Shown here piece after piece: positions 1-37,648 of a DNA stretch of 64,000 bases. This DNA comes from a virus. The stretch covers positions 1 through 64,000 of the IMG/VR virus record IMGVR_UViG_3300017964_000010, one strand, 5' to 3'. Each line of letters begins with the position of its first letter. Positions within the stretch are counted from its first letter, which is position 1. The translations under genes were made by a program, and so were the position numbers. The notes beneath the pieces were generated by a model that saw only the letters and a list, made by a program, of their open reading frames with translations, was not told the origin of the DNA and did not search any database.

Positions 1-878
1 CCTGTACCCACTCTTGTATCAAAGATTGCATTTGTCGCGCCTGTTTTTGTACAATACAGCCAAGTCTCAAATGTCCAACTACCAGTGCCAAAACCAAATC
101 CTGCATCATTAGGTATTGCAAGGAAATCCCCAGACCCATCAAAATGATTGCTATACCCCCCATGCCTGTACGGACTAAATGTGCCAGCATGAGTATCACC
201 GTTGACTGTAATAGTATGATTACTAGTAGACTCGTCAGTTATGTTATTATTGTCTGAGGTTCCAGTTGCTGTTGCTAGTAAAGTTGTATACCTACTGTTT
301 TCTATAATAGTAATAAATCTCAAGGTAAATGATGAAACTGAAGGTAGAATATTTACTCCATCACTGGCTCTAAAGGTAATCGACCCAGTTAATTCAGCAC
401 CTTCTCCAACTTCTGAAACTGTTTTAGGAGTGATAGTAAAGACACTTGAATCTTGACTGATAGTAGCCATCGAGTCCATAGATCCAGCAGTTACATAAGA
501 ATATGATATGGGAAGACCGTCTGGATCTGAAGCGGCTAATGTAATAATAGTAGCATCCTGTGGGCTATCAGCATCCAACACATAAGATGACAAAGGTTGT
601 CCACCAGAATCCCATGTTGGAGTGGTGTTAATAAGGGCTATATTGTACCAACCCGATCCATTCCAGATGTAAAGTCTATTTGATGATTGTACAAAAGCTT
701 GATCTCCTATTTCGTTACCAGTATTTGGGAGTAAATCTGGTGATGCAAAATCTCCAACAGAAGCTTCATCTACTGCAGATGCAATTGTTGCAGGAGTAAC
801 ACTTGGATTTGATGTTATTTCAGAAAGTATAGGACTTTCTATCATAGATTTTGCTAAAAGTCTTGCTTTACTTGGCAT
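1..878 (-). CDS. LamG/concanavalin-A-like domain virion adhesin, paralogue of 886..3354 (runs off window start; not in ORF track)
   Basis: Manual translation from ATG at 878: MPSKARLLAKSMIES...LPNTGNEIGDQAFVQSSNRLYIWNGSGWYNIALINTTPTWDSGGQP...HAGTFSPYRHGGYSNHFDGSGDFL...WTFETWLY. Open to base 1 and closely matches the neighbouring gene's N-terminus. Confidence 0.85.
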   Translation of the reverse strand, partial: MPSKARLLAKSMIESPILSEITSNPSVTPATIASAVDEASVGDFASPDLLPNTGNEIGDQAFVQSSNRLYIWNGSGWYNIALINTTPTWDSGGQPLSSYVLDADSPQDATIITLAASDPDGLPISYSYVTAGSMDSMATISQDSSVFTITPKTVSEVGEGAELTGSITFRASDGVNILPSVSSFTLRFITIIENSRYTTLLATATGTSDNNNITDESTSNHTITVNGDTHAGTFSPYRHGGYSNHFDGSGDFLAIPNDAGFGFGTGSWTFETWLYCTKTGATNAIFDTRVGT

Positions 879-885
879 ATCTTTA

Positions 886-3354
886 TTATCCTCTAAATGG
901 TAATGTTGGTGGTGTAAAGCTTGTGACTGCTGGGCTTCCGTATACGTTATATGTGGATATTTTTATATCACTAGCATACCCAGCATAAGGTGTACCGGGT
1001 CCTGATGATCCAAATGAAAAATATACATTATCAGCACTTGGATCAAGTAACCCAGCTGATAAATTACCAGTCATTACACGAGTTCCATTTAAATACAAAG
1101 AACAGCTTGTTGCTCCCGAGTTTGACATAAAACAAACATGTTGCCATGTATTTGCCGCAAGTTTATAACTATTTGAAGTTTCTTGATTAAAAAATTGGGT
1201 ACCACCGTTTCTCACTGTTAATCTTAAATTGTCAGTATTTTCTTGTTGAAATAATATATACGTGATTCCGCTACCAAGAAACCAAACAATTTTATGAGCT
1301 AATCCATTAGCTTGAACATGTGTAGGATTTATCCAGCATTCAATTGTACACGGCGCGGCAAATAAATTTGGAAACCCAGGACCACCAGCATTTTTTGATG
1401 GTATTTTAACATAATAATCGTTGCTAATAGTACTAAAATCTATAGATTTAGTTCCCGCAAAATTAACTGATGTTGTTGTGCCTACAGTCCCAACTGCTTG
1501 CAAAACCGATCTTTGAGACTTATCAATGATGGATGCGTCTGTTCCTTTGAGGTGTAAAGATGTACCAGATGATGATAGTGGAAATGTAGGTGGAGTGAAA
1601 TTGCTAGTATAAATGGCAGTATCTTTGACTATTCGTAAATCGCTGATATAAACTGAACCAGTGTTTTCTCCAATGAAAGCATTCCATCCAATACCAACAT
1701 TACTTGAAATAAAGTTTGTACTATTTGATGCTGACCCTACACTTGTGCCATCAACATAGATACTGATTGTACCACTATTACGAACCCAAGCGACATGATG
1801 CCATTGATTTACATTAATGGTTCCAACACCATTAGGAAATATTTCACCAACAGTGGTATAAAAATAAACGCCTGTTCCCGCTTGAACGGTGATAGTAACA
1901 TATGCTCCGTTTGTGCTGACGGGCCTTGTATCAACAATTTGACTTGCAGTTGTATCATTACAATAAACCCACGCTTCTATAGTAAAATCGTTCGTTCCAA
2001 AATCAGCTATATTAGTATCATTTATTGTTAAATAATCCCCAGTCCCATCAAAATACACAGACCCACCATGATCCGCAACTTCGTATTCATTGTTGTCGTA
2101 AGGGCCAAATGGTCTTGTTGAGGTATTACCGTTTACTGTAATAGCATGATTGTTGGTAGAACCATCTGCTATGTATGGAAGATGGCAGGTGAGTAATGAA
2201 GTATTTGCTATAGCGGTAAGGCGTGCAATTGGTGGAGTAAAGTTGCTAGTATAAACAGCGGTGCCTTTTACTATTCTAAAATCAGAAATATATCCGCCGA
2301 ATATTTCATTATACCCTCTTGTAAATCCAATAGAGAGAGGCTCATCTATCTCAGATACACTTACAGTTTGAGAAAGCACCTGAGTGCCATTTACAAAAAT
2401 TTTAATATTCGTGCCATCATATACCCATGCACAATGGCTCCAAGCATTACTTACTAAAGTAGTGGAACTTTCATAATTTGTTCCATTATAAAAACCAATG
2501 ACACCAGTGCTAATAGCTAAATAACCATGGTAACTTGTAGTGTTGCTGCCACTGACACGCTTTGAAAAAATCGTTCTATATTTACTATAATCAAGCATGG
2601 GAAATACCCAACACTCAATCGTAAAGCTTGTATTTGCTAAGTTTATCGAAGCATCATTTGAAATAGTTAGATAATCCCCATTCCCATCAAAGTAAGTGCT
2701 ATACCCACCATGCCGATAAGGACTAAACGTACCGGCATGAGCATCGCCGTTTACCGTAATTGTATGATTATTAGTGGAAGAATCGGTTATATCATTGTTA
2801 TCTGAAGTATTCGTGACATCAAATAAAGCAATAGTGTGTTTACTGTTTTCAATACTAACTATAAATGTAAGTGTAAAGTTTGATATTTGAGGCAAGATAT
2901 TAACACCATCGCTTGCTCTAAAGGTAATTGATCCAGTGTATGTCCCTTCACCAAGCTGTGCAAGTGTTTTAGGAGTAATCGTAAATACGCTTGAGTCTTG
3001 ATTAATAGTAGCCATTGAATCCATTGATCCACCAGTAACGTAGGTGTAATTTATTGGAAGACCTTCTGGATCTGAAGCAGCTAGTGTAATGGTAGTTGGG
3101 TCTTGTGGGCTATCTGCATCCAATACATAAGAACCAGAAGGTTGTCCACCAGAATCCCATATTGGACTCGTATTAATAAGAGCTATATTGTACCAGCCAG
3201 TGCCGTTCCAGATATAAAGCCTATTTGTATCTTCAACAAAAGCTTGATCTCCAACTTTATTACCAGTATTGGGAAGTGCATTTACATCAGCATAGTCTTC
3301 ATTTTTAGGGGCTTCAGCCAATTCTGATAATAATCTACCTTTTGATTTTGTCAT
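886..3354 (-). CDS. Virion adhesin/tail fibre with three LamG (concanavalin A-like lectin/glucanase) domains
   Basis: Repeated FDGxGDYL...FTIExW...WxHxAWV...IxVNG...GYISDxRIVKGTAxYTSNFTPP motifs typical of phage LamG_3 domains. Confidence 0.8.
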   Translation of the reverse strand: MTKSKGRLLSELAEAPKNEDYADVNALPNTGNKVGDQAFVEDTNRLYIWNGTGWYNIALINTSPIWDSGGQPSGSYVLDADSPQDPTTITLAASDPEGLPINYTYVTGGSMDSMATINQDSSVFTITPKTLAQLGEGTYTGSITFRASDGVNILPQISNFTLTFIVSIENSKHTIALFDVTNTSDNNDITDSSTNNHTITVNGDAHAGTFSPYRHGGYSTYFDGNGDYLTISNDASINLANTSFTIECWVFPMLDYSKYRTIFSKRVSGSNTTSYHGYLAISTGVIGFYNGTNYESSTTLVSNAWSHCAWVYDGTNIKIFVNGTQVLSQTVSVSEIDEPLSIGFTRGYNEIFGGYISDFRIVKGTAVYTSNFTPPIARLTAIANTSLLTCHLPYIADGSTNNHAITVNGNTSTRPFGPYDNNEYEVADHGGSVYFDGTGDYLTINDTNIADFGTNDFTIEAWVYCNDTTASQIVDTRPVSTNGAYVTITVQAGTGVYFYTTVGEIFPNGVGTINVNQWHHVAWVRNSGTISIYVDGTSVGSASNSTNFISSNVGIGWNAFIGENTGSVYISDLRIVKDTAIYTSNFTPPTFPLSSSGTSLHLKGTDASIIDKSQRSVLQAVGTVGTTTSVNFAGTKSIDFSTISNDYYVKIPSKNAGGPGFPNLFAAPCTIECWINPTHVQANGLAHKIVWFLGSGITYILFQQENTDNLRLTVRNGGTQFFNQETSNSYKLAANTWQHVCFMSNSGATSCSLYLNGTRVMTGNLSAGLLDPSADNVYFSFGSSGPGTPYAGYASDIKISTYNVYGSPAVTSFTPPTLPFRG

Positions 3355-3391
3355 CTTTATATAACCTTAAATTAGTCTATACTATTTATTA

Positions 3392-6300
3392 TTACTTTTC
3401 TGTTAAAATCCAACCACGGCTTGCGTTATAATAAACTAAACCAAATGAAGCTTCATTTACATCTACGGTTAAATCTGAGTCTGTACCCTGTATCCTATCT
3501 GAAGAAGTTAATATAATATTATTTGTTGCACAGTTTCCGGAGCCATCAATAATTCTAATTTCATTACCAAATGTCGGAGAACTAGGTAAATTAATTGTTA
3601 TAGAATTTGAAGATGTGTCAATTACTAATTTTTTATTTACTGCAGCAGTATATGGTGTAGTATTTACTTCAACATAATCATTAGCTAAAACACTATTTAC
3701 AATACCCGTCACATAATCGGAGTCTGCTCCAGTAATTTTTAATACAGATGAAGTATTTGTTTGTAAAGTATTAATTACAACTTCATCCGCAGCTTCTGTT
3801 GGATCGTTAAAAGTAATAGTATTTGTTGTTGAGTTTACAGTAAAATCTGATGCTAAAACTCTAATACCATTTATAAACACCTGATAATTGTCTGTATCTA
3901 TATTTAATGTTTGTGCATTAATATCAGCACCGGTAAATACCGTTTGTCCAGAATCTGCGGAATAAACATAGTTTTTAAAATATGACTGATTGTGGAAATA
4001 ATTGTTATTAGTAAATTCTTTTATATATGAATTACTATGTGCTGTAATAAGTAATTCGGTTCCGTTTACAACAGGATCAGTAAGAGTAAGAGATGTTCCA
4101 TTTGTTGCAGTATAATCAACACCATCTATAATTACAATACCATTTAAAAATACTTGAAGTTGACCAGAATTATATGATAAAGTATTTCCTACATCATCCG
4201 CGCCTGTAAATATGGTTTGATTAGAATCGGAAGTATATCTAAATGTTGTTGTTGCTGGATCATTAGAAGAAGTAAATGTAGATAAGATATATGCTGAATC
4301 CACAATACCCAATACTTGAGCAGAATCAACAGTTGAAATTCTTGCATTAATATAAGCCGAATCAATAGTATTGATATAATCAAACTGTGGGCTTCTGGCA
4401 AGAATATAAGCTGAGTCAATAAGAGCAACCGTTTCTGCTTCTGTCATTAAAAAACCATCAGCTAAAGCTGAGTCTAAACCTTTTATTTGTCTTTCTCCGA
4501 TATATGCTTCATTTACTATTGATGCAATATAAGCTGAATCCACTGCTCCACTACCAAGGAAAGCAGTAATTGTAATTTCAGAAGAGGACTCTGCAGCATC
4601 GGTAAGTACAATAGAAGATCCGTTAGTTGCGGTATAATCGGTAGAACTCAATAAAATACCATTCATAGAAACTATAATTGCACCAGGATGATAATTAAGT
4701 GTATTACCATTATCATCTGTTCCACTAAAACTCGTCTGATTTAACGACGCTGTATAATTATATACATCTAATCCGGGTAAACTTCTGTAAGTTGATACGT
4801 TTGATAAATTATATGCTTGAATTGTAAGCTCGGATGTTGAAGGAGCAGCTGTATTAAGAACAATAGATGTACCATTAGTTGCTATATAATCATCTGAATC
4901 AGATAATAAAATACCATTTAAATAAACTTGTATATCACCAGACTGATAAGATAAAATTTTACCTTTTATATCAGAACCCGTAAAAGTTGTTTGACCAGAA
5001 TCTGCAGTATAAATAAATGTTGATATACCATCAAGGGCTTTTGAACTTCTTACTCTTTCATTAATATATGCAGCATCTATTAATGCAACTGTATCGTTTG
5101 CAACTATAGTATTAATTACAACTTCGTCTTCAATTATTGCAGCTGTACCAAGAGTAATTGTATTTGTGATAGGATTTGCAGAATAATCTGATCTAAGTAA
5201 TCTAATACCATTTATAAATAATTCATAATTAGAAGAATCAAATGCTAAAGAATTTCCATTTACATCATTACCACTAAATATTGTTTGACCAGAGTCTGCA
5301 ATAAATTTAAAATCTACAAAAGATGCATCAACGGCATTTAAAGAAGAACGTGCAGAAATATAAGCTGAATCAATTATTGCAATTACATCAGCCGAGTCTA
5401 TTGTACCAGTTCCTCCACCAGAATTTGTTGAAGGATTAAAAGTAAATATTCCAGTTGAATTATCATAAGACAAAGAACCGCCGCCTGATGCAGAACCAGT
5501 AGTAACTGATAATCCCGCTCTTGCCTCCGATAAACTAATACCAGAACCACCACCAGACTGTCTAGCTTGAACATAAGCCGAATCAACAGTATTTTGAATA
5601 AGAATAATTGTTGAAGCAGAATCTACTGTACCACCACCGCCGCCACTTATAACAAGATCACCAGACCCTAAAAGTGTATTTCCATTAATTGTTTTAATAT
5701 TGGTTCCAGATACAAGTGTTGATTGAGCATCCGTAATACCATATCCAGAAATTGTGGTAGGTATGCCCGTTAATGAACTAAATGCCCCATCAAACGCATC
5801 CGTAATGCCATAGCCAGCTATTGTTGTTGGCGTACCTGTTAAAGAACTGAAAGCTCCATCAAATGCATCCGTAATACCGTATCCAGCTATTGTTGTTGGC
5901 GTACCTGTTAATGAACTAAATGCCCCGTCAAAATTTACAGAATAATCTGGACCAGAACCACCCATACCACTATGATTAGTGCAATAATAATGTAATCTTG
6001 GTGTTGCAAAAGTAACAGCTATTTCTGTATAAGCACCTGAACTACCAGGTGTTCCAGCAACTGTAACACCTGTTGAATATGTGGCACTTGGACTATTATT
6101 AGCATTAGTTGAAAATCTGAGTGGGTGACCAGAGTTTGATGCATCTGATTGATCGAACCTATATGTTCTGCCGGGTTGCAAATGAAGAACCGGACTAACC
6201 GCCCCACTAAAATAATATTTATTACCAGTTCCATACTCATTAGTACCGCTTGCTACAGTAACTAATACTGTGGTAATAGTTGGCAATTTAGTAGCAATAT

Positions 6301-6847
6301 TATTAGTTACTGTTGTACTAAAGTTAGCATCATCTCCAAGAGCAGCAGCAAGTTCGTTTAAAGTATCAAGTGTCCCAGGGGCTGCATCTACTAATGCATC
6401 AATCTTTAGTTGTGCTCTTGCGTCGGCTCTTGCATCTGTATAATATAAATTAGTACCTTCAGTTAAATCGTTGGTAGATTTTGTTCCTAATCTTGTATCA
6501 AATCTTGCATCTGTATAATATAAATTAGTACCTTCAGTAATATGATCAGTAGTATCTGGTATAGTTAAAACACCAGTAGAATTATCATATGCTTGGGTTC
6601 CTGCAGAACCTAAACTTATAGATGTTCTTATAAGAGGAATAGCTCTAGCCGAATCAATCGAATTTGCTTGTACTATGTCAAGTACACCGGCAGAATCAAA
6701 TCCGGATCCTGCTGCAGGTATTCCTCCAGAAGAATCTATAATTGTAATTATGCTACCGTCGGCTTTAACTGATTTTAATTCACCTCGTACAACAATATCT
6801 TGTCCTACATCTAGGCCATTTTTTACCTTAAAATCTTTATTTGGCAT
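3392..6847 (-). CDS. Tail fibre / virion structural protein (fibre repeats, cupredoxin-like motif, five or more 'ADSGQTxFxG...NG...DYxATNGTS' beta domains)
   Basis: TxDLTEGTNLYYTDAR repeats, APGTLDTLNELAAALGDD fibre motif, PTTIAGYGITDA repeats, YYCTNHSGMG motif, C-terminal T4 gp9/gp10-like 'VYYNASRGWI' domain. Confidence 0.75.
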   Translation of the reverse strand: MPNKDFKVKNGLDVGQDIVVRGELKSVKADGSIITIIDSSGGIPAAGSGFDSAGVLDIVQANSIDSARAIPLIRTSISLGSAGTQAYDNSTGVLTIPDTTDHITEGTNLYYTDARFDTRLGTKSTNDLTEGTNLYYTDARADARAQLKIDALVDAAPGTLDTLNELAAALGDDANFSTTVTNNIATKLPTITTVLVTVASGTNEYGTGNKYYFSGAVSPVLHLQPGRTYRFDQSDASNSGHPLRFSTNANNSPSATYSTGVTVAGTPGSSGAYTEIAVTFATPRLHYYCTNHSGMGGSGPDYSVNFDGAFSSLTGTPTTIAGYGITDAFDGAFSSLTGTPTTIAGYGITDAFDGAFSSLTGIPTTISGYGITDAQSTLVSGTNIKTINGNTLLGSGDLVISGGGGGTVDSASTIILIQNTVDSAYVQARQSGGGSGISLSEARAGLSVTTGSASGGGSLSYDNSTGIFTFNPSTNSGGGTGTIDSADVIAIIDSAYISARSSLNAVDASFVDFKFIADSGQTIFSGNDVNGNSLAFDSSNYELFINGIRLLRSDYSANPITNTITLGTAAIIEDEVVINTIVANDTVALIDAAYINERVRSSKALDGISTFIYTADSGQTTFTGSDIKGKILSYQSGDIQVYLNGILLSDSDDYIATNGTSIVLNTAAPSTSELTIQAYNLSNVSTYRSLPGLDVYNYTASLNQTSFSGTDDNGNTLNYHPGAIIVSMNGILLSSTDYTATNGSSIVLTDAAESSSEITITAFLGSGAVDSAYIASIVNEAYIGERQIKGLDSALADGFLMTEAETVALIDSAYILARSPQFDYINTIDSAYINARISTVDSAQVLGIVDSAYILSTFTSSNDPATTTFRYTSDSNQTIFTGADDVGNTLSYNSGQLQVFLNGIVIIDGVDYTATNGTSLTLTDPVVNGTELLITAHSNSYIKEFTNNNYFHNQSYFKNYVYSADSGQTVFTGADINAQTLNIDTDNYQVFINGIRVLASDFTVNSTTNTITFNDPTEAADEVVINTLQTNTSSVLKITGADSDYVTGIVNSVLANDYVEVNTTPYTAAVNKKLVIDTSSNSITINLPSSPTFGNEIRIIDGSGNCATNNIILTSSDRIQGTDSDLTVDVNEASFGLVYYNASRGWILTEK
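5726..5932 (-). repeat. 3 x 69-bp tandem repeat encoding FDGAFSSLTG(T/I)PTTI(A/S)GYGITDA
   Basis: Three consecutive 23-aa units are visible in protein and DNA. Confidence 0.9.
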
Positions 6848-6865
6848 AGTTCACTTTCCCCGTGC

Positions 6866-21654: not shown

Positions 21655-21663
21655 TATTTACCT

Positions 21664-24607: not shown

Positions 24608-24624
24608 TTTTTTTTCTTTCTATA

Positions 24625-27790: not shown

Positions 27791-27799
27791 ATTGTACTC

Positions 27800-28948: not shown

Positions 28949-29166
28949 TAATCACCTATTTTATTTAAAAGAGTTGAAAGTAATTCTTTTATTTCTGTAA
29001 CATCGTCTTTTAATTTTTCCAATTCTTGCTTTTCTCTTTTTTTCTTTTTTAATGCTTGTCTTGATTTAATAATTGTTTCATCATCACTTATTACAATTGC
29101 TCCAGACTCTAAATCTCTTTTATATCCTGGAAAATTATCTACCATTGCATATTTATGATTTTTCAA
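28948..29166 (-). CDS. Small conserved coiled-coil protein downstream of the DUF4815 gene
   Basis: RDLESGAIV...LKDDVTEIKELL, in the usual position in T4-like phages. Confidence 0.7.
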   Translation of the reverse strand: MKNHKYAMVDNFPGYKRDLESGAIVISDDETIIKSRQALKKKKREKQELEKLKDDVTEIKELLSTLLNKIGD

Positions 29167-29167
29167 T

Positions 29168-32100
29168 TTAATCTCCTAATGCAATTACTCTAAGATCACG
29201 TATTACAGGTACCTTAGTCTGATTTCCTGATCTCATAACAATTTTCAATTGAAACTGTGTAAATTCTTCACTAGAACCATCAGATTTACCAACTAAGTAA
29301 CGATATTCTCTAAAGATAAGAGGATCATCATCGGAACCAATTGCTTTTTCTGGTTCAACTTTAATAAATGGTATACCTTCTATTGAAGCTTCGCTGGTTA
29401 CTCTATAATACATATCAATAAATGTATCTGATGGTCTATTAGCTCCCATAAGAATTTTTAATCCAACTGATGATGCTGTTAATCTTACCGGTTTTGTTAT
29501 ATGTTTAGCAATAGAAGGACCGTCTTCCCTTGTTTCTCCAAATAGTGGATCATAGTATGCCGTTCTGTTACTGGTGCCCATAATAGCATTTACTGTATCA
29601 CTATCTAATGAGTGAGACCATTCAATAGGCTTATTCTGAGTTGTACTTTGTGTATTACTTGGATTATCAATAAGATTTGTAGTAAGGGTTGCCGAGTTTC
29701 TTTGTAAGTCGATAACAGGACTTACATAAACATTACTTGATCTTATTTCAGCTTCTAAAACTAAAGATGTTGCAAGCTTAGAAGGTGGAGAAACTCTATG
29801 CATTGTTCTCATAATATTATCTTGATTAGGAGAAACCAACGTAGATACAGTATCAAGTATATCAACACTTCCTAAAATATTTGGAGTATTATCCGCATAT
29901 GATTTACCAGTAGACATTTTAACCTGATAATCTATTCTAGTTTTTGGTGGTTCAATTGCTTGAACAGCTGGCCAAATAATATTATAATTATATGCTTGTT
30001 CAACAGATACGTTATTACCACCAGTTATTGATCTAAAATATAAATTTGGTTTTGTAAGACTAGATGGTGCTGAAAATACAAATCCAGTAGGATCAACTTC
30101 AGTTAAAGTAAATGGTGTATTATTTAAGTCACTATCTATTGGTGTTCCAGTGATTCCACTTAAATTAATAGTGTCTCCTACATATAAACCGTGTAATGGT
30201 GATCTAACGTAAACATCACTATAATTTGAACTATCTCTAAAGAAAAATTCTATAGGATCTGAAGCTAAGATTCTTTTTGGTACCGGAACATTTTTAAAGA
30301 CGGCTTTCGTTGTTTTATCTACATGGAATTCAGCTTTATATAATGTAAATTTAAGATCAGTTTTAAAATCTGGTTCCCAAGTTCTACTATTCTGCGATTT
30401 AAAGAAAGAGCCAAGATATGGCTGAGTATTAATTTTTTCTGTTGTAGATCCTAATTTAAACTCGCCCATTGTTGAAATATATGTTTCATATGCATCACTA
30501 TTTGAAATAACTACAATAGCATATTCTGTAGCTGGTTTTAAATATACTGGTTCTCTAAATACTGCTTTTGTTTCTGCTGAAGCATCTGAAGAAACAACTA
30601 CATCTGATGCCGGAATAGTAACAATCGAACCCGGTAGTGCAACATCTGAAGATGGAACACCATTTACTGTTGGTCTAATTTGAATAGAAACCGGAAAAGC
30701 TTGATCGCTCGTATCTTTTTTTGAAAAGAATAGTCCGACTTCTGTTAAGAAAACACCAGTTCCTTCGGTAACTAAAAATGATTGTGCAATAGGATCTTGA
30801 TAACCAAGCACACATTTTATTACTCCTGCGGTATCTTGAACAATTCCTGTTGCAGTTTCAATTGTGTCATCAATTAAATCTCCAGTAGCAGTAGCCACAC
30901 CGCCCATAGCAGATGTTATTCCTCCAATGAGATCTCCTTGGAAAACCTCTCCTATACCATCAGCAATACCTCCAGCAACAGTTTGTAAAGCACCAAGGAA
31001 GTCTATACCACCACCTTTTGATCTAACATTTATTGTTTCCGTCTTAGTTGTAGACTCTCCGACAATATGAAGCATTCTTGTAGATAAAACATCTTCTTGT
31101 CTTGTAGTAAGTGTTCCAGTAGAACTAAAAATTGCCTGAGCAGCACATGATGCATTTTGCTTTTTAAACTCTGTAATATCTAATAGAGTAAATTCTAAAT
31201 CTCCAGTTCTAAAATTACCGTTAGCACGGGTGCTTGATGATGGTATAAAGAAACTGCCTTGAATTTTACCCGAACCGTCGGTATAAAGTTTTGTTTTTCC
31301 GCCTAAATTGCTCGGATATTCCGTTGCTGATTTATATAAATTGCTTACTTCAGTTTGTTTTGTAGTGTTAACACCAGTAAATTGATCTTGTCTTACCCAA
31401 TCTGCAATAGATCTGCCGTCAAAATAAGCAAATACTTGTGTATTAGGAGCTAAACCTTCGGCTTGGAAACTCACAATCTTTGATCTCATAAAAGGTAAAA
31501 ATGCAACATCAACGACCCGATCATCAATTATTTCTCTAATAGTTTCTGAAGCAACAACTCTATTTACAACAGTTTCTGTTGTAACATCAGTTCCTCTAGT
31601 AGTTTTTTTGTTCCAGAACCAACCTTTTGTTTCTTTCCAATCTCTTCTTGATATTTCATTAGTAACTGAAGCTTCAGCTCCGACATCAAGACCATCAATA
31701 TCAGTGCCGCCCCAATTCCATTCATGGGCTCCCCATTGAAGTGCCAAATCAGTATTAAGCAGAGTTCCGCCGGGAATAATTTTTTCTGGAAGATAATCTG
31801 TTTCATACCAATCATCTGATGCAGGAGAAAGAGTTAATGATCCATTATAAAATAAATTTAAATAAGGATTAACATTTATTGTAGAGGAAGCAACGTCTTG
31901 AACAATATAAGGTGTTGTAGTATATGTTGTATATACATTATCGCCTTTCATAATTGTATTTGTAGAAGCATTTGAATCGTAATAAAAACCAATATTATTT
32001 GTAATTGCTCTGGGTCTTAACGCTTTATTTCTAGGATCTATTGCAGCAGAATAATCAGGATGTGTAATATCGGAATAATATTGATTTTCAAAATTATCTG

Positions 32101-34732
32101 CCATAAGCCCAGATTTAGTTCTGTTTCTATTATCAGAATCTAAAACATCAATATTAGCAGTATCCATTTCTAATAAAGTGAGAGATGTTACCTCGGTAAG
32201 ATCATCAATCTTTTTTTCAATCTTTGCTATATCTCTCATAGTATAACGTTTATTGTCAAGCATAGTGAATTGCAAATCTTTAGGACCGAAAGTTCCTGGA
32301 TTCATTCTAACTCTATAAAGTTCCATAGCATCTGGAGGAGTAGGCGGGAATTTAGGTGTTAAACTAGGTCTACCTTGAATATATTTAAATTCACCTTCTT
32401 GTGTTAATAATACTTTATCATATCTTGCTTCATATAAATTTACGTCTGCTATAATAGTAGAACCATTTCTTGGTAAAATAAAAACTTCAGCATCTGATGT
32501 TGAAAATGTTCCGCTACTACCTTTTGATGATCTAAAATCCAAATAATTTTTAAGATCAATATATTGACCATTTGCTAATTTATAATTTGGTATATCTTGA
32601 TAATTTATACTAGAATATGAACTTGGTCCAAAAAAGTCTCCAGAACCATGTTCAAAATAAGTAAACTCTACATATAATGTTATACTTGTGTTATTAAAAT
32701 TACCTGTTATTGTTCTACCAGATTTTATTCTAATAGAACCTTTAGCATATAAATTATCTCTTTGTCCACCATCAACAATAAATTTATCAGTAACAAGATT
32801 ACCGTTTTTTGATTGAACTCTAATTTCTTCTACACTAATAACATCAGTAAAAGGTAAAGAAGCTGTGCCTACACTAGGATTAAATGTTACTAAAGCTGAT
32901 GTAGAAATCTTTGTTTTAGATGCAACCGTTGCTTGTTGTTTAAATGTATATGCATATACTTCATAGGTATCGCCAGCAACAACACCATTATCTACAAGAG
33001 GATCTCCTGTTGAACCCTTTAAACCAGAAATAGTTATACTTGAAAATCCTACTGAACCATAGCTAGGAGTTTGACCAAGCGTTACTCCGCCAGCATCTGC
33101 AATAACCCATCCATTAGTATCAGTAAAAATTTCACCTGCTGGAGCATTTATAGTGATAGTTCCTGCACCATTTGCAATAGATGCTGTAGCTGTATATCTT
33201 CTTGCAAGAGTCATGGAAACATCTGAAACTGAACTTGGTCTCTCGCCTGGTATCTTAAAGAATAGCTCATTTGCTTCTGATTCAAAAATAGACACTTTAT
33301 TATTATTTCTAACAAGAATCATTTCTTGTCTATCACAATTACATAAAGAAACTTCAACACCAATTGATTTTGCATCTCTATTAAACTGTTTACCTGGATT
33401 CATATTAATGTCAAATATATATACTTTATATGTACCCGAACCAGGTTCACCACGATCTATACCCCTTACTCTTAAAGTTCCTATAGTATCGGGTGCTGTG
33501 CTACTAAAAGTAGGAGATACATCAGTATCACTAATTGTAAGTAATTCAAATACGTTTACGTTTGGTATACCATAAAAACCTTCTTTTACAAGAATATAGT
33601 TTCCATAGTTACCAGAAATACCTTGATTTTCTTGAGTTACCGTAGTAGTTGATCTAGGTACACTTAACGAACTTGCAGAAGATTTATTTATTCTGTAACC
33701 ATTTACATAAGCCGTACCACTACTTACAGATAAATTAAGTTTAGAATTATCAGTACTATGATCTTCCCAAGAAATTCTAAAAGGTTTTACTGTATAATTA
33801 CCAGACTCTTCCCTGGTACGTACAGCCATAATATCATTTATTTTATTATATTGTTCATATCCAGTAACCGCTTCTGATAATACACCATGTTCAATTTTAG
33901 CATAATAAATAAATGTTTCACCGGGCTGAATGGTATTTTTATTTACAAGTTCAAGTTTAATTGTATATCTGTCGGCACCAGGAGCAGTATAATTAGGCAA
34001 TTCCCCCTGATTATCATATAAAGTATCATCATCATCGGCTGTAGTTATCACTTGGGTAAGTTTAAAACCAATGGTAGCAGTTGGGTTTGAAAAATACTTT
34101 GCTACAATTAAATCTTGCCTAGGAACATAAACAAAATGACCTTCTGCAAAAAATGTTGCTGGTCCAGCAGAAACTCTAAATCCATAACCAGTTGCCGGAT
34201 CTGCTGTAGTATTTGTAGTTTGAGCAACTAATACCAAAGACCCATCTTTTTCAAGTAATTCTTCTCCAGGTCTTATTGAAGCCGGAGTTGTTCCGGATGT
34301 GCCATTTAATGTATCAAGATATTGTACATATATTGTAGCCGGATCATTTACGGTAGCTTCAATGATTTCAATTATTTTTACTGAAATGCCAGATAGCTGC
34401 CCAACAAAAACTTTATCTTTAAAATTAGATATATTAGCAGGAAGAGCAACACCAGGAGTTACTACATCTGTAGGATCAGTATTTAGTTTAACATATCTAT
34501 AACGAGTATTGGCAGTAACTGAAGCTGCTTCAAGTGAAGCCCCCTCTTTAAAAAGATTTGTACCAAGCCTTTTTATTTCTTCTTGAATAATCGATTGAAG
34601 CTGATTTAATTCTCTGCTCTGAAGGGCTTTACCACTTTTAAATAATACTTTATGATATCCCTTATCAGGATCAAAGTCATCTCTATAAATCTGATTTTCT
34701 AAATTTTTAGTGTAATTAATAGACATTAGCAC
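29168..34732 (-). CDS. DUF4815/VrlC-like large baseplate-associated structural protein (start probably 34726)
   Basis: YRDDFDPDKGYHKVLFKSG-LQSRELNQLQS, APGADRY, RTREESGNY, NKRYTMRDI, DPIAQSF and IRDLRVIAL motifs. Confidence 0.85.
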   Translation of the reverse strand: MLMSINYTKNLENQIYRDDFDPDKGYHKVLFKSGKALQSRELNQLQSIIQEEIKRLGTNLFKEGASLEAASVTANTRYRYVKLNTDPTDVVTPGVALPANISNFKDKVFVGQLSGISVKIIEIIEATVNDPATIYVQYLDTLNGTSGTTPASIRPGEELLEKDGSLVLVAQTTNTTADPATGYGFRVSAGPATFFAEGHFVYVPRQDLIVAKYFSNPTATIGFKLTQVITTADDDDTLYDNQGELPNYTAPGADRYTIKLELVNKNTIQPGETFIYYAKIEHGVLSEAVTGYEQYNKINDIMAVRTREESGNYTVKPFRISWEDHSTDNSKLNLSVSSGTAYVNGYRINKSSASSLSVPRSTTTVTQENQGISGNYGNYILVKEGFYGIPNVNVFELLTISDTDVSPTFSSTAPDTIGTLRVRGIDRGEPGSGTYKVYIFDINMNPGKQFNRDAKSIGVEVSLCNCDRQEMILVRNNNKVSIFESEANELFFKIPGERPSSVSDVSMTLARRYTATASIANGAGTITINAPAGEIFTDTNGWVIADAGGVTLGQTPSYGSVGFSSITISGLKGSTGDPLVDNGVVAGDTYEVYAYTFKQQATVASKTKISTSALVTFNPSVGTASLPFTDVISVEEIRVQSKNGNLVTDKFIVDGGQRDNLYAKGSIRIKSGRTITGNFNNTSITLYVEFTYFEHGSGDFFGPSSYSSINYQDIPNYKLANGQYIDLKNYLDFRSSKGSSGTFSTSDAEVFILPRNGSTIIADVNLYEARYDKVLLTQEGEFKYIQGRPSLTPKFPPTPPDAMELYRVRMNPGTFGPKDLQFTMLDNKRYTMRDIAKIEKKIDDLTEVTSLTLLEMDTANIDVLDSDNRNRTKSGLMADNFENQYYSDITHPDYSAAIDPRNKALRPRAITNNIGFYYDSNASTNTIMKGDNVYTTYTTTPYIVQDVASSTINVNPYLNLFYNGSLTLSPASDDWYETDYLPEKIIPGGTLLNTDLALQWGAHEWNWGGTDIDGLDVGAEASVTNEISRRDWKETKGWFWNKKTTRGTDVTTETVVNRVVASETIREIIDDRVVDVAFLPFMRSKIVSFQAEGLAPNTQVFAYFDGRSIADWVRQDQFTGVNTTKQTEVSNLYKSATEYPSNLGGKTKLYTDGSGKIQGSFFIPSSSTRANGNFRTGDLEFTLLDITEFKKQNASCAAQAIFSSTGTLTTRQEDVLSTRMLHIVGESTTKTETINVRSKGGGIDFLGALQTVAGGIADGIGEVFQGDLIGGITSAMGGVATATGDLIDDTIETATGIVQDTAGVIKCVLGYQDPIAQSFLVTEGTGVFLTEVGLFFSKKDTSDQAFPVSIQIRPTVNGVPSSDVALPGSIVTIPASDVVVSSDASAETKAVFREPVYLKPATEYAIVVISNSDAYETYISTMGEFKLGSTTEKINTQPYLGSFFKSQNSRTWEPDFKTDLKFTLYKAEFHVDKTTKAVFKNVPVPKRILASDPIEFFFRDSSNYSDVYVRSPLHGLYVGDTINLSGITGTPIDSDLNNTPFTLTEVDPTGFVFSAPSSLTKPNLYFRSITGGNNVSVEQAYNYNIIWPAVQAIEPPKTRIDYQVKMSTGKSYADNTPNILGSVDILDTVSTLVSPNQDNIMRTMHRVSPPSKLATSLVLEAEIRSSNVYVSPVIDLQRNSATLTTNLIDNPSNTQSTTQNKPIEWSHSLDSDTVNAIMGTSNRTAYYDPLFGETREDGPSIAKHITKPVRLTASSVGLKILMGANRPSDTFIDMYYRVTSEASIEGIPFIKVEPEKAIGSDDDPLIFREYRYLVGKSDGSSEEFTQFQLKIVMRSGNQTKVPVIRDLRVIALGD

Positions 34733-36090
34733 TCATCCAATTGAATAACTATTTTAATATCTTCTGTTTGATTTGCAACTCTAGTAACTGCAGACCTATT
34801 ATCTATATACAATACTTCACCTGTAAATGGATCAACTTCTGATCTTATTAACGGATTACCTATGGTTCCTTGACCTGGACCGGTTAATTCTGTTATAGTT
34901 TCACTTGCAATAAAAGGTGCATAACCAGTAGAATCATTTTGATGATATAACAATATGTTTTGGTTCGTTTGATCAACATAAGCTCTAGCACCACTTGTAG
35001 CACCAATAATAATTTCATCTGTTGAAAATGCAATAGGATTTGTTGAAAGAGTCATCGATTGTAATGCATTACCAGTAAGACTTGTCCATTGGGAACCTTG
35101 TGCAGAATCTTTAATTCCTCTAATAATACCAATCTGTCTATAATCTTGATTTATAAGCCAATCTGATGTATTTCCGTCAACTCTTACTCCAATCATCATA
35201 GAACCACATTTAAGATCAGAAGATGCATCTCCACCAATACCCAATCCGCTTGACATAATAGCTCTTACTTCACCGTTTGTCCCATCCTGATCTGTAAGTG
35301 TAATTTGAGCACCTCTTAATCCATGAACATAATTTAAAGTTGTTCCTGAAGAATCTGGATTATATTCTGCTTTAATAATTGAACCCGTACCGGAATCTAA
35401 AGTAAAATTGACAAGTGATGGATAATTAACACCATTAATATTTACTGAAGGATTGCTGTAATTTGATCCGCCTGCTATTACTTCAAAGGAAGTAATCATT
35501 CCTGGCTTTGCAGTTTGTTGTATTTCATATTGCTTAATTTCATTACCTGTAGAATTTGAATCTACAGATAAAATTCTATTAATAGGCATATGATCATTAG
35601 TCATAAATAAAGTAGCATCTAGTGCACTAATAGTATAGAGAAATTTCCAAACATAACCATCTGAAGTTTCAAACGGGTCATTATTAGCTCCTGTAGGTTC
35701 TACTATCGAAGGTACTGCAGAACCAATTGAATCTGTTCCTTGTCTTAAACAAATATAAACATCATTATTATTATTTGCAGTATAAAAATATTCTGAACTA
35801 TAATCTGTTAAATCTTTTTTATCATCATATGCAACGTATGTAGATCCTGTTTTCCAGGATTTACGAGGAACAACTAAAGAAGCTGCCGCTACTCTATGAA
35901 TAGATTGCAAACCATTCCTAAAATCATTTTGGATTCTAATATTGTCTTTTGCAACAGGAGCAGAATCTAAAGCATTCCATGGATTGGATCGAGACACACC
36001 AATATAATAGTTTTCTGTAGTATTATTAATACTACGAATAGTCCCAATCATGAGTTCTTTTTTAAAGTTTTGTGTTACAACTGTTGACAT
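34726..36090 (-). CDS. gp8: Baseplate wedge subunit gp8
   Basis: VVPRKSW, VYICL, TSDGYVWKFLYTI, DYRQIGII, GEVLYIDNR...QTEDIKIVIQL. Confidence 0.85.
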   Translation of the reverse strand: MSTVVTQNFKKELMIGTIRSINNTTENYYIGVSRSNPWNALDSAPVAKDNIRIQNDFRNGLQSIHRVAAASLVVPRKSWKTGSTYVAYDDKKDLTDYSSEYFYTANNNNDVYICLRQGTDSIGSAVPSIVEPTGANNDPFETSDGYVWKFLYTISALDATLFMTNDHMPINRILSVDSNSTGNEIKQYEIQQTAKPGMITSFEVIAGGSNYSNPSVNINGVNYPSLVNFTLDSGTGSIIKAEYNPDSSGTTLNYVHGLRGAQITLTDQDGTNGEVRAIMSSGLGIGGDASSDLKCGSMMIGVRVDGNTSDWLINQDYRQIGIIRGIKDSAQGSQWTSLTGNALQSMTLSTNPIAFSTDEIIIGATSGARAYVDQTNQNILLYHQNDSTGYAPFIASETITELTGPGQGTIGNPLIRSEVDPFTGEVLYIDNRSAVTRVANQTEDIKIVIQLDEC

Positions 36091-36100
36091 ACTCTACCTA

Positions 36101-37648
36101 TTAAATTATTGCGTCCTTTAAATATAACAGATTCTTGTTTCTTAATTCTTGAATAGTTACATTTTTCATATTCTGGTTATCACCATAATTAAAACTATTT
36201 ATATTGAAAACAGCATTAGAATCGTACTTAATCCACTCATATATACTATTAAATTTATGTGAAAGATTAAATTTAACAGTAATATTTCCTGGACCATCCT
36301 TTTTAAGATTTATATCTAATATTCCATTAGAATCAAGTATATTATCAATCCTTAATACTGGTGCTGTAGTAGATACAAATGATGTTGCATGATTAGCAGC
36401 ATCTAAACTATCTCCTATACAAAAATAATCACCACCAAAAGAATCACCAAGACCAGGTAATGCAATTTCAAGATTTGTGGAAGAATAATCACCTTGCAAA
36501 TACATTCTTGAAATATATGTCTTACTATCGCCTCTTGTAATTTGAGCAAGAGTTTTATTTAATTCTTGTGGCACATTAATTTGTATTAAAGATGAAGTTA
36601 ATGTTGGAGTTTCTGTTCCTAGAGTTTTTATTGTTGCTGGAGATGCTTCAAATATACTATAGCGTTCACCATCGACTTCTGTAAGACCAGGTTGATAATT
36701 ACTATCTTCAGTTCTAAGTGTTGGAGATAAATTTATGGCTGCAAGATTTATTTCTTTATTACTATAAATTCCACCATTGGCGGAACTTTGAATAGAAAAC
36801 CCAGGACCTTCAAGTGCTCTTCCATAACTGTCTTCAATAAACCATCCTTCACTATCAGTATAATCTAATACATTTCGGTATCCAAATCTTCTTGTATTTA
36901 ATCCGCAAGTGTATTCTTTAAATCCATCCATCACAAGAATATCAATATTACCCATATCGACTTTACTGATAACACGAGTTTCTACCGACATTCTTGGAAT
37001 TGAGCTGTCTGTTTCAATTCTTAAATTTAAAGGTGTTGCATCAGAAAGAACACCAACGGGTTTATATTTTGGATTTGTATATAACTGTGCATCCGCATGT
37101 AAATAAAAACCTGCAGGGTGCACAAACTTTTTATATAATTGTTCCCATTGCTTTAAAGGTACCGAAGTTTTTACTAAATGTGATAATACTTGATGTAATC
37201 TACCGTCTTGAATTTTCTTTGGCGAATTAGGTCCAAGTATTGATAAAGGATCGTCTAATAAAAATATTTTTTCTTTTGGGTATTCTATCTCTACATACGT
37301 ATCGAAAAAGCCACGGAAAAACCCTTCTGCAGAATAAAGAGAACCTTTTACTCTGAAAAACTTTGCAAGATTTTTTAATATTTCACGAGGATTAGAAATA
37401 AATTGAGAAGATAAACTAAGACCAATTTCTGCAAAAAGAGAATCAAGATATTTTAAATCCGTTTTTCCAATATCTCTTATTTCATATAAATCTTTTATTG
37501 TATTTCCAAAATTTCCATCAGAATCTAAAGCGTCATAATATGATTCCAAAAATTCTACAAGATTTGGATAATCAGTAACAAAATATTCCGGGAGAACATC
37601 CCTTACATAATCTGCTCTAAGTGATATATTATTTCTATCTTCAGACAT
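36101..37648 (-). CDS. Baseplate wedge protein, gp7-like
   Basis: LPEYF..DYPNLVEFLESYY, FFRVKGSLYS, KKFVHPAGF, located between gp6 and gp8. Confidence 0.7.
   Translation of the reverse strand: MSEDRNNISLRADYVRDVLPEYFVTDYPNLVEFLESYYDALDSDGNFGNTIKDLYEIRDIGKTDLKYLDSLFAEIGLSLSSQFISNPREILKNLAKFFRVKGSLYSAEGFFRGFFDTYVEIEYPKEKIFLLDDPLSILGPNSPKKIQDGRLHQVLSHLVKTSVPLKQWEQLYKKFVHPAGFYLHADAQLYTNPKYKPVGVLSDATPLNLRIETDSSIPRMSVETRVISKVDMGNIDILVMDGFKEYTCGLNTRRFGYRNVLDYTDSEGWFIEDSYGRALEGPGFSIQSSANGGIYSNKEINLAAINLSPTLRTEDSNYQPGLTEVDGERYSIFEASPATIKTLGTETPTLTSSLIQINVPQELNKTLAQITRGDSKTYISRMYLQGDYSSTNLEIALPGLGDSFGGDYFCIGDSLDAANHATSFVSTTAPVLRIDNILDSNGILDINLKKDGPGNITVKFNLSHKFNSIYEWIKYDSNAVFNINSFNYGDNQNMKNVTIQELRNKNLLYLKDAII

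What the first reader, a model, noticed from the sequence alone, without database searches (positions are those of the whole stretch)
1..37648. Virion-wide Asp-Ser (DS) motif: candidate surface-modification sequon on fibres and outer baseplate
Seen: hand counts give about 90 DS dipeptides in the 3823-aa fibre, about 21 in the 1151-aa protein, 11 in gp7-like (515 aa), 7 in gp8 (454 aa), 8 in the first ~290 aa of the PKD protein, 6 each in the 344- and 409-aa fibres, and 5 in the first ~195 aa of the LamG protein. In contrast there are 2 in gp6 (613 aa), about 5 in the DUF4815 protein (1854 aa) and 0 in the D/S-rich gp32. The context is mostly hydrophobic/small-D-S-(A/S/D/G/N). The motif occurs in non-homologous, non-repetitive settings, and Ser is encoded by both TCN and AGY codons, so selection is on the protein, not the DNA. 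Established: D-(S/T)-(A/L/V/I/M/T) is the Bacteroidetes O-glycosylation sequon, and DS followed by a helix is the phosphopantetheinylation site of carrier proteins and ybbR tags (compare VDSAYIASIV here). Inference: the phage may have painted its exposed proteins with an acceptor site for a phage- or host-encoded transferase (glycan shield or similar), or with a metal-binding turn. No candidate enzyme lies in this window.
Basis: partly seen in the sequence, partly recalled or inferred. Interest (0 to 1): 0.82.

Follow-up and report, generated by a model that had tools for sequence, protein, structure and literature searches.

The report
Asp-Ser signature of phage fibre shafts
The tail-fibre and outer-baseplate proteins of this uncultured marine T4-like phage carry about twice the expected number of Asp-Ser pairs, and these pairs are unusually well conserved; they most likely act as structural punctuation in rod-like fibre repeats, not as a tag for sugar attachment.

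Summary
In the tail genes at 1-37648, DS occurs 171 times against 87 expected. It is the most enriched of all 400 dipeptides, while SD is 1.0x, DT 0.6x and ES 0.3x. Ser codon use at DS matches Ser codon use across these tail genes as a whole, so selection acts on the protein.

DS is also the best-conserved dipeptide between this phage and a relative whose tail proteins are 49-86% identical (84% kept, against 55% for other pairs). The excess is not virion-wide. It sits in shaft-like segments and is missing from the LamG and PKD globular parts, DUF4815, the Gly-rich protein and a 590-aa Ser-rich head-repeat block.

About 40% of sites lie in repeat modules that share the pattern hydrophobic-D-S-small:
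- a pentapeptide-repeat beta-helix;
- an uncatalogued 9-residue repeat, DS[D/A]Y[I/V]xxxh, which a trimer model packs into a rod with DS at chain contacts;
- an Ig-like DSGQT domain.

The Bacteroidota sequon and the carrier-protein analogy both fail their tests.

A modification sequon is not excluded. The 74-kb record is a fragment, and a near-complete relative has GT25, a weak GT8-like match and methyltransferase genes just downstream of the fibre genes.

The same scan had already noted the solenoid in an overlapping window of this genome.

My best reading is a structural turn or helix-cap motif (confidence 0.6).

The parts
6866..18337 (-). 3823-aa mosaic fibre with 92 DS (O/E 2.8)
   Evidence: The excess appears in every segment (O/E 2.4-4.5) except the N-terminal 180 aa, residues 2211-2800 and residues 3281-3510.
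16508..17797 (-). Pentapeptide-repeat (A-D/Y-I-x-x) beta-helix segment, fibre residues 181-610. It has 22 DS against 5.4 expected, and DS fills the two variable positions after the central Ile.
   Evidence: phmmer hits to solved pentapeptide-repeat proteins (5dra, 4yfo, 3du1, 2j8k, MfpA 6zt4), best E 8.7e-13. Counts. Ser here uses both TCN (16) and AGY (6) codons.
8498..9052 (-). Nine-residue repeat array 1 (DS-D/A-Y-I-K-x-x-A, partly as 18-residue units), fibre residues 3096-3280. 13 DS against 2.9 expected.
   Evidence: Contains near-identical 54-nt DNA repeats and uses only TCN Ser codons. The trimer model shows contacts with strict 9-residue periodicity.
7478..7807 (-). Nine-residue repeat array 2 (hDSAY[IV]xARx), fibre residues 3511-3620. 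8 DS against 2.2 expected.
   Evidence: Homologous to residues 769-934 of the 1151-aa protein (42% identity, E 3e-29).
9938..11707 (-). DS-free contrast block: G/S/N-rich YadA-head-like repeats, fibre residues 2211-2800. It has 81 Ser and 20 Asp but 0 DS (2.7 expected).
   Evidence: The Pfam YadA_head hit on this protein lies at residues 1298-1321, outside this block; the block is called YadA-head-like only by eye.
3392..6847 (-). 1151-aa modular fibre with 21 DS (O/E 2.0). DS sits in two nine-residue repeat blocks (about 5318-5647 and 4253-4552) and in four of five roughly 90-aa 'F.Y.A-DS-GQT.F.G' domains.
   Evidence: The same domain in the Pelagibacter phage HTVC025P fibre reads TASQTTF, without DS.
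36101..37648 (-). gp7-like baseplate wedge protein, 515 aa, with 11 DS (O/E 3.2) in non-repeat contexts
   Evidence: Pfam Baseplate_wedge E 1.3e-14. Seven of the 11 DS are invariant in 18 orthologues at 59-82% identity. Only about four recur as DS in several of the 25-45% homologues. In the AF2 model (pLDDT 65) DS lies in loops or at the ends of helices and strands.
34726..36090 (-). gp8-like baseplate protein, 454 aa, with 7 DS (O/E 2.3; p about 0.03)
23573..25854 (-). Two short fibres (344 aa with a Peptidase_S74 chaperone domain, and 409 aa), 6 DS each, including IDSSYVETR and IDSAYINAR
27800..28948 (-). 382-aa fibre-like protein (Peptidase_G2 autoproteolytic domain), 4 DS against 1.9 expected
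29168..34732 (-). DUF4815 (VrlC-like) 1854-aa protein, a DS-poor contrast (5 against 11.0 expected)
   Evidence: The same holds in relative G001 (6 against 10.7) and in phage Mosig VrlC (8 against 12.4).
886..3354 (-). LamG protein, 822 aa. All 5 DS lie in the first 195 aa; the 627-aa LamG part has 0 (3.1 expected).
18347..21358 (-). PKD-domain protein, 1003 aa. 8 DS lie in the first 290 aa (O/E 2.5) and 1 in the remaining 713 aa (4.4 expected).

Best explanation
DS is a structural element of the rod-like (shaft) parts of this phage lineage's fibres and outer baseplate. The recurring unit is hydrophobic-Asp-Ser-small. It stands where a buried strand or helix residue ends and a new short element begins.

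I infer that Asp acts as a helix N-cap or Asx-turn residue. The adjacent Ser would then supply the second hydrogen-bonding group, within the chain or to the neighbouring chain of the trimer.

The unit is built into several repeat families:
- the corners of a pentapeptide-repeat beta-helix;
- an uncatalogued 9-residue repeat, DS[D/A]Y[I/V]xxxh;
- an Ig-like DSGQT domain;
- strand-DS-strand units of beta-helix-like parts.

These modules are multiplied by tandem duplication and exchanged between fibre genes. That amplification, plus strong purifying selection on each copy, yields the dipeptide excess. No covalent modification is required.

Shown here: the excess, its restriction to shaft-like segments, its conservation, the pentapeptide-repeat homology and the repeat anatomy. 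Inferred: the capping or turn role, and the inter-chain contact (from a model only).
For: 1. The excess is real and acts at the protein level.

2. DS is the most conserved of the 110 dipeptide types with n>=40 between this phage and relative G001. It is kept at 142 of 169 sites (84%). Other D-x pairs are kept at 61%, x-S at 48% and all other pairs at 55%. In the giant fibre the figure is 83 of 92.

3. Distribution follows architecture, not exposure. O/E is 2.4-4.5 in nearly all shaft-like segments of the giant fibre and in the N-terminal parts of the LamG and PKD proteins. It is 0-0.5 in the LamG and PKD globular parts, DUF4815, the Gly-rich protein and the YadA-head-like block.

4. The flanks are fixed. 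A hydrophobic residue precedes 64% of sites and a small residue follows 80%.

5. Residues 187-300 of the giant fibre match solved pentapeptide-repeat proteins at E 1e-12, with DS at the two turn positions.

6. The 9-residue repeat occurs in arrays of roughly 20 copies in viral contigs that are 33-43% identical. DS precedes the x-Y-[IV] anchor in 43 of 45 cases there, in 29 of 58 in the window fibres, and in 0 of 60 in non-fibre proteins. DS columns make up most of the invariant columns of that alignment.

7. A three-copy model of array 1 supports self-association. Score 0.69, best of 3 controls 0.00. That mark was reached by 20 of 30 proteins solved as pairs of one chain and by 1 of 23 solved as single chains. 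The runs agree in at least 76% of contacts, and the partner's pLDDT is at least 57. The calibration counts hold only roughly, because my own alignment and three copies were used. Contacts recur every 9 residues: Tyr-Ile and the last two residues of each repeat in all three chains, and Asp-Ser in two of the three.

8. Phages whose fibres do not show these DS-bearing repeats show no clear excess. T4 baseplate, fibre and other virion proteins: 61 against 52. Cyanophage S-WAM1: 1.0-1.24. Pelagiphage Mosig: 1.2-1.6.
Against: No structure shows what Asp and Ser actually do. The monomer AF2 model of the repeat region is unusable (pLDDT 31), and the trimer result is a model, not a measurement.

Masking the recognisable repeat motif leaves 1.4x overall, and about 3x in gp7-like and in non-repeat parts of the giant fibre. 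Repeat amplification alone is therefore not the whole story.

In a pentapeptide-repeat beta-helix the two DS positions face the solvent (established knowledge of that fold). Other members of the family do not need DS there, so the fold does not dictate it.

The preference for Ser over Thr (DT 0.6x) and for Asp over Glu (ES 0.3x) is sharper than general turn or cap statistics would predict.

The C-terminal parts of 149 diverse gp7-like proteins also show DS as their top dipeptide (768 against 412), in varied contexts. This points to some lineage-wide factor that I have not identified.
Confidence: 0.6

Rival explanations
1. DS (hydrophobic-D-S-small) is an acceptor site for a phage-encoded cytoplasmic transferase that puts a sugar or another group on Ser before or during fibre assembly. 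This would give the shafts a protective or adhesive coat.
For: - Ser in DS is far more conserved than Ser in general (84% for the pair, against 0.79 x 0.65 expected from the single residues).
- Ser is required rather than Thr.
- The DS positions in the pentapeptide-repeat part face outward (fold knowledge).
- The signal is lineage-specific.
- The near-complete relative G001 has a co-directional cluster starting about 140 bp after its last large tail-cluster ORF. It contains a GT8-like match (weak, E 0.0085), an O-methyltransferase-like match, Methyltransf_24 and GT25 (E 4.5e-14), with a weaker second GT25 match about 1.6 kb further on. The genome also carries nucleotide-sugar genes.
- GT25 is absent from the four DS-poor control phages.
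- There is precedent for phage-encoded virion glycosylation in mycobacteriophages: Freeman et al. 2023, known to me only from the reference list of PMC12801897.
Against: - There is no direct evidence of modification.
- DS is missing from the most distal globular domains (LamG, PKD) and from other tail proteins. A shield should cover them too.
- The fixed hydrophobic residue before DS, the strict 9-residue register and the modelled chain contacts point to packing, not to an accessible loop.
- Sugar and methyl-transfer clusters next to baseplate genes also occur in Mosig, which has only a weak DS excess.
- The two TAGT genes suggest that the sugar genes may serve DNA modification instead.
- The GT25 comparison is one genome against four.
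Confidence: 0.12
2. DS, often as DSD, forms cation-binding turns (Ca2+ or Mg2+ of sea water) that rigidify the trimeric shafts. This would be analogous to the ion ladders of other phage fibres and beta-rolls.
For: - Asp is invariant, and D follows DS in 28 of 171 sites here. DSD is also the commonest extension in the gp7-like family (187 of 768), and DSDG is the top 4-mer.
- The phage is marine.
- DS lies at modelled inter-chain contacts with threefold repetition.
- This rival is compatible with the structural reading and may be a special case of it.
Against: - No ion-binding consensus is present. The sequence is not the RTX GGxGxDxUx repeat.
- DG is not enriched (0.79).
- Marine cyanophage S-WAM1 lacks the excess.
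- Nothing was tested with ions.
Confidence: 0.15
3. The excess is an artefact of composition, of local Asp/Ser-rich patches, or of a DNA-level motif. GAY-TCN contains GANTC, the target of the CcrM methyltransferase of Alphaproteobacteria.
For: - Both D and S are common in these proteins.
- GAT-TCN does create GANTC, and the tail region has 154 GANTC sites against 119 expected from base composition.
Against: - Shuffling within 30- and 60-residue windows leaves p<0.001.
- SD is exactly 1.0.
- 29% of DS Ser codons are AGY, the same as for all Ser, and AGY makes no GANTC.
- Genome-wide GANTC is 241 against 227 expected.
- DS is the best-conserved dipeptide.
Confidence: 0.02

Closest known systems
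Pentapeptide-repeat proteins (A(D/N)LXX right-handed quadrilateral beta-helix; e.g. MfpA, Np275/276, All3740)
   Same: Residues 187-300 of the giant fibre, and probably 421-600, have the 5-residue period. They match solved members at E 1e-12.
   Different: The central residue is Ile, and the two variable positions are Asp-Ser in every second or third pentapeptide. The domain sits inside a phage fibre. The Pfam scans returned no pentapeptide-repeat family for this protein or segment.
Modular short motifs of marine phage tail fibres (NLYYTDAR, LVDxAPxTLDTLNELAxALGDD, GYGITDA, and the roughly 90-aa GQT.F.G domain of pelagiphage fibres)
   Same: The 1151-aa and 3823-aa proteins contain these motifs alongside the DS repeats. 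They share them with Pelagibacter, Roseobacter, Methylophilales and cyanobacterial phages. The modules are exchanged between genes.
   Different: The 9-residue DS[D/A]Y[I/V] array returned only weak or spurious Pfam and PDB matches, which I discount. In HTVC025P the shared domain lacks DS.
Helix N-capping / hydrophobic-staple and Asx-turn motifs (general protein structure)
   Same: The pattern is hydrophobic (N'), Asp (N-cap), Ser, small, x, hydrophobic (N4). DS lies in loops or at helix and strand ends in the gp7-like model.
   Different: The role is inferred from sequence pattern and from models of low or moderate confidence. The Ser-over-Thr and Asp-over-Glu preference is stronger than general statistics suggest.
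Bacteroidota general O-glycosylation, sequon D-(S/T)-(A/I/L/V/M/T)
   Same: Asp precedes a Ser.
   Different: Thr is avoided and the third position is not restricted. The substrates of that system are non-cytoplasmic (PMC12871550). The host is not shown to be Bacteroidota.
Phage-encoded virion glycosylation in mycobacteriophages, and glycosylation of staphylococcal Ser-Asp repeat adhesins (from memory, not tested)
   Same: They show that cytoplasmic transferases can decorate structural or adhesive proteins on Ser or Thr. A relative of this phage encodes transferases next to its fibre genes.
   Different: No SD-repeat tracts are present (SD 1.0x). No modification is shown, and the transferase families differ.

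Membership tests
Bacteroidota O-glycosylation sequon | Ser and Thr both serve as acceptor after Asp | tested here: not met
   DS is 1.97x, but DT is 0.60x and DT[AILVMT] is 0.72x.
Bacteroidota O-glycosylation sequon | Third residue restricted to A/I/L/V/M/T | tested here: not met
   DS[AILVMT] is 2.06x against 1.91x for DS followed by any other residue. D, S, G or N follow 85 of 171 sites.
Bacteroidota O-glycosylation sequon | Substrate is exported (signal peptide or membrane protein), and glycan transfer takes place in the periplasm | tested here: not met
   The N-termini of the fibre, gp7-like and gp8 proteins were read by eye and show no signal-peptide-like start (no predictor was run). The requirement itself comes from PMC12871550.
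Bacteroidota O-glycosylation sequon | Host belongs to Bacteroidota | tested here: inconclusive
   The relative's PEPCK-like gene is 63-67% identical to genes in four alphaproteobacterial single-cell or MAG assemblies, and also to short contigs binned as Flavobacteriales and Saprospiraceae. The fibre domains are shared with Pelagibacter phages.
Carrier-protein phosphopantetheine site / ybbR tag | DS at the start of helix II of a roughly 80-aa carrier domain, plus a PPTase | tested here: not met
   No carrier-domain or PPTase family appeared among the Pfam matches returned for the window and contig proteins of at least about 100 aa that were scanned, nor among the families listed for the 72 scanned ORFs of relative G001 (one of those lists was cut at 25 of 43 families).
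Pentapeptide-repeat family | Tandem A(D/N)LXX units over many coils, with similarity to solved members | tested here: met
   phmmer E 8.7e-13 to 1.1e-06 against nine solved pentapeptide-repeat proteins over fibre residues about 188-310.
RTX nonapeptide beta-roll | GGxGxDxUx consensus in 9-residue repeats | tested here: not met
   The repeat reads DS[D/A]Y[I/V]K[ST][IV]A and has no Gly.
Ser-Asp repeat (SDR) adhesins | Long uninterrupted SD dipeptide tracts | tested here: not met
   SD is 87 against 86.8 expected, and no SD tracts appear in the translations.
Phage-encoded virion glycosylation | Glycan mass on virion proteins that depends on phage transferases | not testable with these tools
   Only the presence of GT25, a GT8-like match and methyltransferase genes in a relative could be shown.

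The most novel reading that the evidence does not exclude
Hydrophobic-Asp-Ser-small is a lineage-specific acceptor site on fibre shafts for a phage-encoded transferase. The candidates are the GT25, GT8-like and methyltransferase genes that follow the fibre genes in the 177.5-kb relative. On this reading, the rods of a widespread group of uncultured ocean T4-like phages would carry a regular ladder of modified Ser. That would be the first sequence-defined protein modification site described for tailed-phage fibres.
Probability: 0.12. Interest if true: 0.85.

Novelty: new variant of a known kind. Interest (0 to 1): 0.45.

Why it matters
Fibres decide which host a phage binds and how long the particle stays infective. 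Here a two-residue signature marks the shaft parts of the fibres and outer baseplate in a common but uncultured group of ocean T4-like phages. It is also the single best-conserved dipeptide in those proteins.

The signature defines at least one repeat family, the 9-residue DS[D/A]Y[I/V] array, for which Pfam and PDB returned only weak or spurious matches. It is also a cheap sequence marker for separating shaft segments from globular tip domains in metagenomic fibre genes.

If the structural reading holds, this is a new building block of trimeric rods. If the minority reading holds, it would be a defined modification site on phage fibres.

Tried and rejected
- **Nearest cultured relatives.** Megablast of 20 kb against GenBank phages gave no match. 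Protein search found only distant N-terminal matches for gp7-like.
- **AF2 monomer of fibre residues 3090-3640.** Mean pLDDT was 31, so the model is unusable. Its short helices starting right after DS are not counted as evidence.
- **AF2 model of gp7-like.** Mean pLDDT was 65, enough only to place DS in loops or at the ends of elements.
- **PDB sequence search of repeat array 2.** Only chance-level hits.
- **Relaxed Pfam scan of the arrays.** Only weak or spurious matches to unrelated families, such as Med31 and a Plasmodium His-rich protein, which I discount.
- **ESM Atlas features.** Best score 0.81, below the level that means anything.
- **BLAST self-masking of repeats.** It masked most of each protein, so it was too blunt; motif masking was used instead.
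- **Co-occurrence of GT25 with DS-rich fibres.** The other DS-rich relatives are fragments 15-53% complete. The loci found with the GT25 protein hold no fibre genes within 10 kb. No conclusion is possible.
- **Host through SAG contigs.** The alphaproteobacterial assemblies carrying the PEPCK-like gene gave no gp7-like match with this query, so they show gene kinship, not infection.
- **DNA-level explanation (GANTC).** Rejected.
- **GT2 family in the relative.** No match.
Full report
**What the DNA is.**
The window is the first 64 kb of a 74,179-bp virus record. The record carries T4-type baseplate and replication genes:
- gp6, gp25, gp53, gp5-like parts, a gp48/54-like protein, gp32, RNase H, PhoH and ribonucleotide reductase;
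- a gp7-like wedge protein, gp8, a DUF4815 (VrlC-like) protein, and LamG and PKD proteins;
- several fibres, including one of 3823 aa.

No capsid, terminase or polymerase gene is present, so the record is a fragment.

Viral contigs with about 80% protein identity are common in metagenomes. One of them, G001, is 177.5 kb, judged 86% complete and syntenic. I fetched it whole. Position 1 of the window falls inside the counterpart of a 1311-aa G001 tail gene.

**The observation.**
- In the tail genes at 1-37648, DS occurs 171 times against 86.8 expected. It ranks first of the 400 dipeptides (z = 9).
- SD is exactly at expectation, DT is 0.60x and ES is 0.31x. In the remaining genes DS is 0.65x.
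- Shuffling within 30- or 60-residue windows leaves the excess intact for the giant fibre, the 1151-aa fibre and gp7-like (p<=0.001). It is marginal for gp8 and the two short fibres.
- Ser codons at DS sites mirror overall Ser usage (29% AGY). The GANTC site that GAY-TCN creates is not enriched genome-wide.
- In G001 the excess appears in the same genes and nowhere else.

**Where DS is, and where it is not.**
The pattern is hydrophobic-D-S-small. I/V/A/L/F precede 64% of sites, and A/D/S/G/N follow 80%.

68 of the 171 sites fit the motif DS[ASDN]x[IVLMF]. Most of these belong to recognisable modules.

1. *Solenoid.* Residues 181-610 of the giant fibre have a 5-residue period (A-D/Y-I-x-x). They match solved pentapeptide-repeat proteins at E 1e-12, and DS fills the two variable positions.

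2. *Nine-residue repeat, DS[D/A]Y[I/V]xxxh.* It stands in arrays in the giant fibre (residues 3096-3280 and 3511-3620) and in the 1151-aa fibre, and singly in the 344-, 409- and 382-aa fibres.
   - More distant viral contigs (33-43% identity) carry arrays of roughly 20 copies, in which DS is almost invariant.
   - Pfam and PDB returned only weak or spurious matches to unrelated families, which I discount.

3. *Ig-like domain.* A roughly 90-aa domain reads F.Y.A-DS-GQT.F.G in four of its five copies in the 1151-aa fibre. The homologous domain of the Pelagibacter phage HTVC025P fibre has TASQTTF instead.

4. *Strand-DS-strand units* occur in the beta-helix-like middle of the giant fibre.

The modules are not independent. 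The two large fibres share a 193-aa module at 42% identity, and array 1 contains near-identical 54-nt DNA repeats.

Repeats are still not the whole story.
- After motif masking, 103 DS remain against 73.7 expected.
- Nearly every segment of the giant fibre has O/E 2.4-4.5.
- gp7-like, with no repeats, has 11 against 3.4.

The exceptions are informative:
- 0 DS in a 590-aa G/S/N-rich YadA-head-like block that contains 81 Ser;
- 0 in the 627-aa LamG part and 1 in the 713-aa PKD part, although the N-terminal stretches of both proteins are enriched;
- 5 against 11 in DUF4815;
- 0 in the Gly-rich protein.

The excess follows shaft-like architecture, not surface exposure as such.

**Selection.**
Between this phage and G001, DS is the best-conserved of the 110 dipeptide types with at least 40 occurrences.
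- It is kept at 142 of 169 sites (84%). Other D-x pairs are kept at 61%, x-S at 48% and the rest at 55%.
- In the giant fibre the figure is 83 of 92.
- In gp7-like, 7 of 11 sites are invariant across 18 orthologues down to 59% identity. Only about four persist at 25-45% identity.

**Lineage specificity.**
- Nineteen T4 baseplate, fibre and other virion proteins give 61 against 52.
- Cyanophage S-WAM1 gives 1.0-1.24.
- Pelagiphage Mosig gives 1.2-1.6, with VrlC at 0.65.
- By contrast, the C-terminal parts of 149 representatives of the gp7-like family (each under 50% identical to the others) have DS as their top dipeptide: 768 against 412, with the same DT and ES depletion and in varied contexts. 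Shared ancestry inflates that count, but the tendency reaches well beyond this phage.

**Structure.**
- The gp7-like AF2 model (pLDDT 65) puts DS in loops or at helix and strand ends.
- The monomer model of the repeat region failed (pLDDT 31).
- A three-copy model of array 1 supports self-association. Score 0.69, best of 3 controls 0.00. The mark was reached by 20 of 30 proteins solved as pairs of one chain and by 1 of 23 solved as single chains. The runs agree in at least 76% of contacts, and the partner's pLDDT is at least 57. The counts hold only roughly, because my own alignment and three copies were used.
- Contacts in that model recur every 9 residues. Tyr-Ile and the last two residues of each repeat are involved in all chains, and Asp-Ser in two of the three.
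- This supports a trimeric rod in which DS lies at or beside the chain interface. It is a model, not a measurement.

- *Bacteroidota sequon: fails.* Thr is avoided, and the third position is unrestricted (2.06x against 1.91x). That system acts only on exported proteins in the periplasm (PMC12871550). These proteins have no signal-peptide-like starts.
- *Host: unresolved.* The fibre domains are shared with Pelagibacter and other marine phages. A PEPCK-like gene of G001 is closest to genes in alphaproteobacterial single-cell or MAG assemblies, and also to short contigs binned as Bacteroidota.
- *Carrier domain, PPTase or kinase:* none appeared among the Pfam matches returned.

**Candidate enzymes.**
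There are none in the window or the 74-kb record. G001 does have a co-directional cluster starting about 140 bp after its last large tail-cluster ORF. It holds a weak GT8-like match, an O-methyltransferase-like match, Methyltransf_24 and GT25, with a weaker second GT25 match about 1.6 kb further on. Elsewhere in the genome lie two TET-associated glycosyltransferases (usually DNA-directed) and nucleotide-sugar genes.

GT25 is absent from T4, S-WAM1, Mosig and HTVC025P. That is one genome against four. Mosig also has a sugar-modification cluster beside its baseplate genes with only a weak DS excess. Attempts to widen the comparison failed.

**Verdict.**

The most likely explanation (0.6) is a structural turn or cap element of rod-forming fibre modules, multiplied by duplication and module exchange. 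A cation-binding version of that idea (0.15) and a phage-encoded Ser modification (0.12) remain open. Composition or DNA-level artefacts are excluded.

Noticed in passing
L034:3722-10379 (= G001 83.7-90.4 kb), beyond the window's left end: In the 177.5-kb relative, a co-directional cluster follows the tail-fibre genes directly. It holds a weak GT8-like match, an O-methyltransferase-like match, Methyltransf_24, a weak Methyltransf_12 match, GT25 and several proteins with no family. The same genome has two TAGT genes, a PMM, a cytidylyltransferase, an epimerase/dehydratase and a UDP-glucose dehydrogenase.
   Followed up: partly
window 8498-9052 (-): Array 1 of the 9-residue repeat contains near-identical 54-nt DNA units encoding DSDYIKTAA-N[QR]SWIRFNA. 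It is probably a recent tandem expansion and a possible site of length variation. The G001 counterpart has a different copy number.
   Followed up: partly
window 1-37648, tail proteins: Alongside the DS excess, ES (11 against 35.7 expected) and DT (51 against 84.8) are strongly depleted. The same pair of depletions recurs in 149 gp7-like family representatives. No explanation was tested.
   Followed up: no
window 5719-5958 (-), 1151-aa protein residues about 297-376: Three tandem copies of FDGAFSSLTG[TI]PTTI[AS]GYGITDA. Upstream lie two NLYYTDAR motifs and the LVDAAPGTLDTLNELAAALGDD motif, which matches a solved tail-collar fibre (9d93, E 3.9e-12).
   Followed up: partly
window 47675-48169 (+): A TnsA-like endonuclease gene (Pfam E 1.3e-18) sits on the opposite strand between baseplate genes. 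A segE-like GIY-YIG gene lies at genome 65914-66366. Both look like mobile nuclease insertions.
   Followed up: no
L036:11622-12815 (G001 131.6-132.8 kb): A short (397-aa) PEPCK-like gene in the relative phage is 63-67% identical to full-length matches in four alphaproteobacterial single-cell or MAG assemblies, and to matches on short contigs binned as Flavobacteriales and Saprospiraceae. This is a weak hint about the host or the gene's source.
   Followed up: partly
P0060, P0098, P0129 (gp7-like family representatives): Distant homologues (25-40% identity in the N-terminal domain) with unrelated C-terminal parts again show DS at 3-4x expectation: 13 against 3.2, 14 against 3.7 and 26 against 8.8.
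   Followed up: partly
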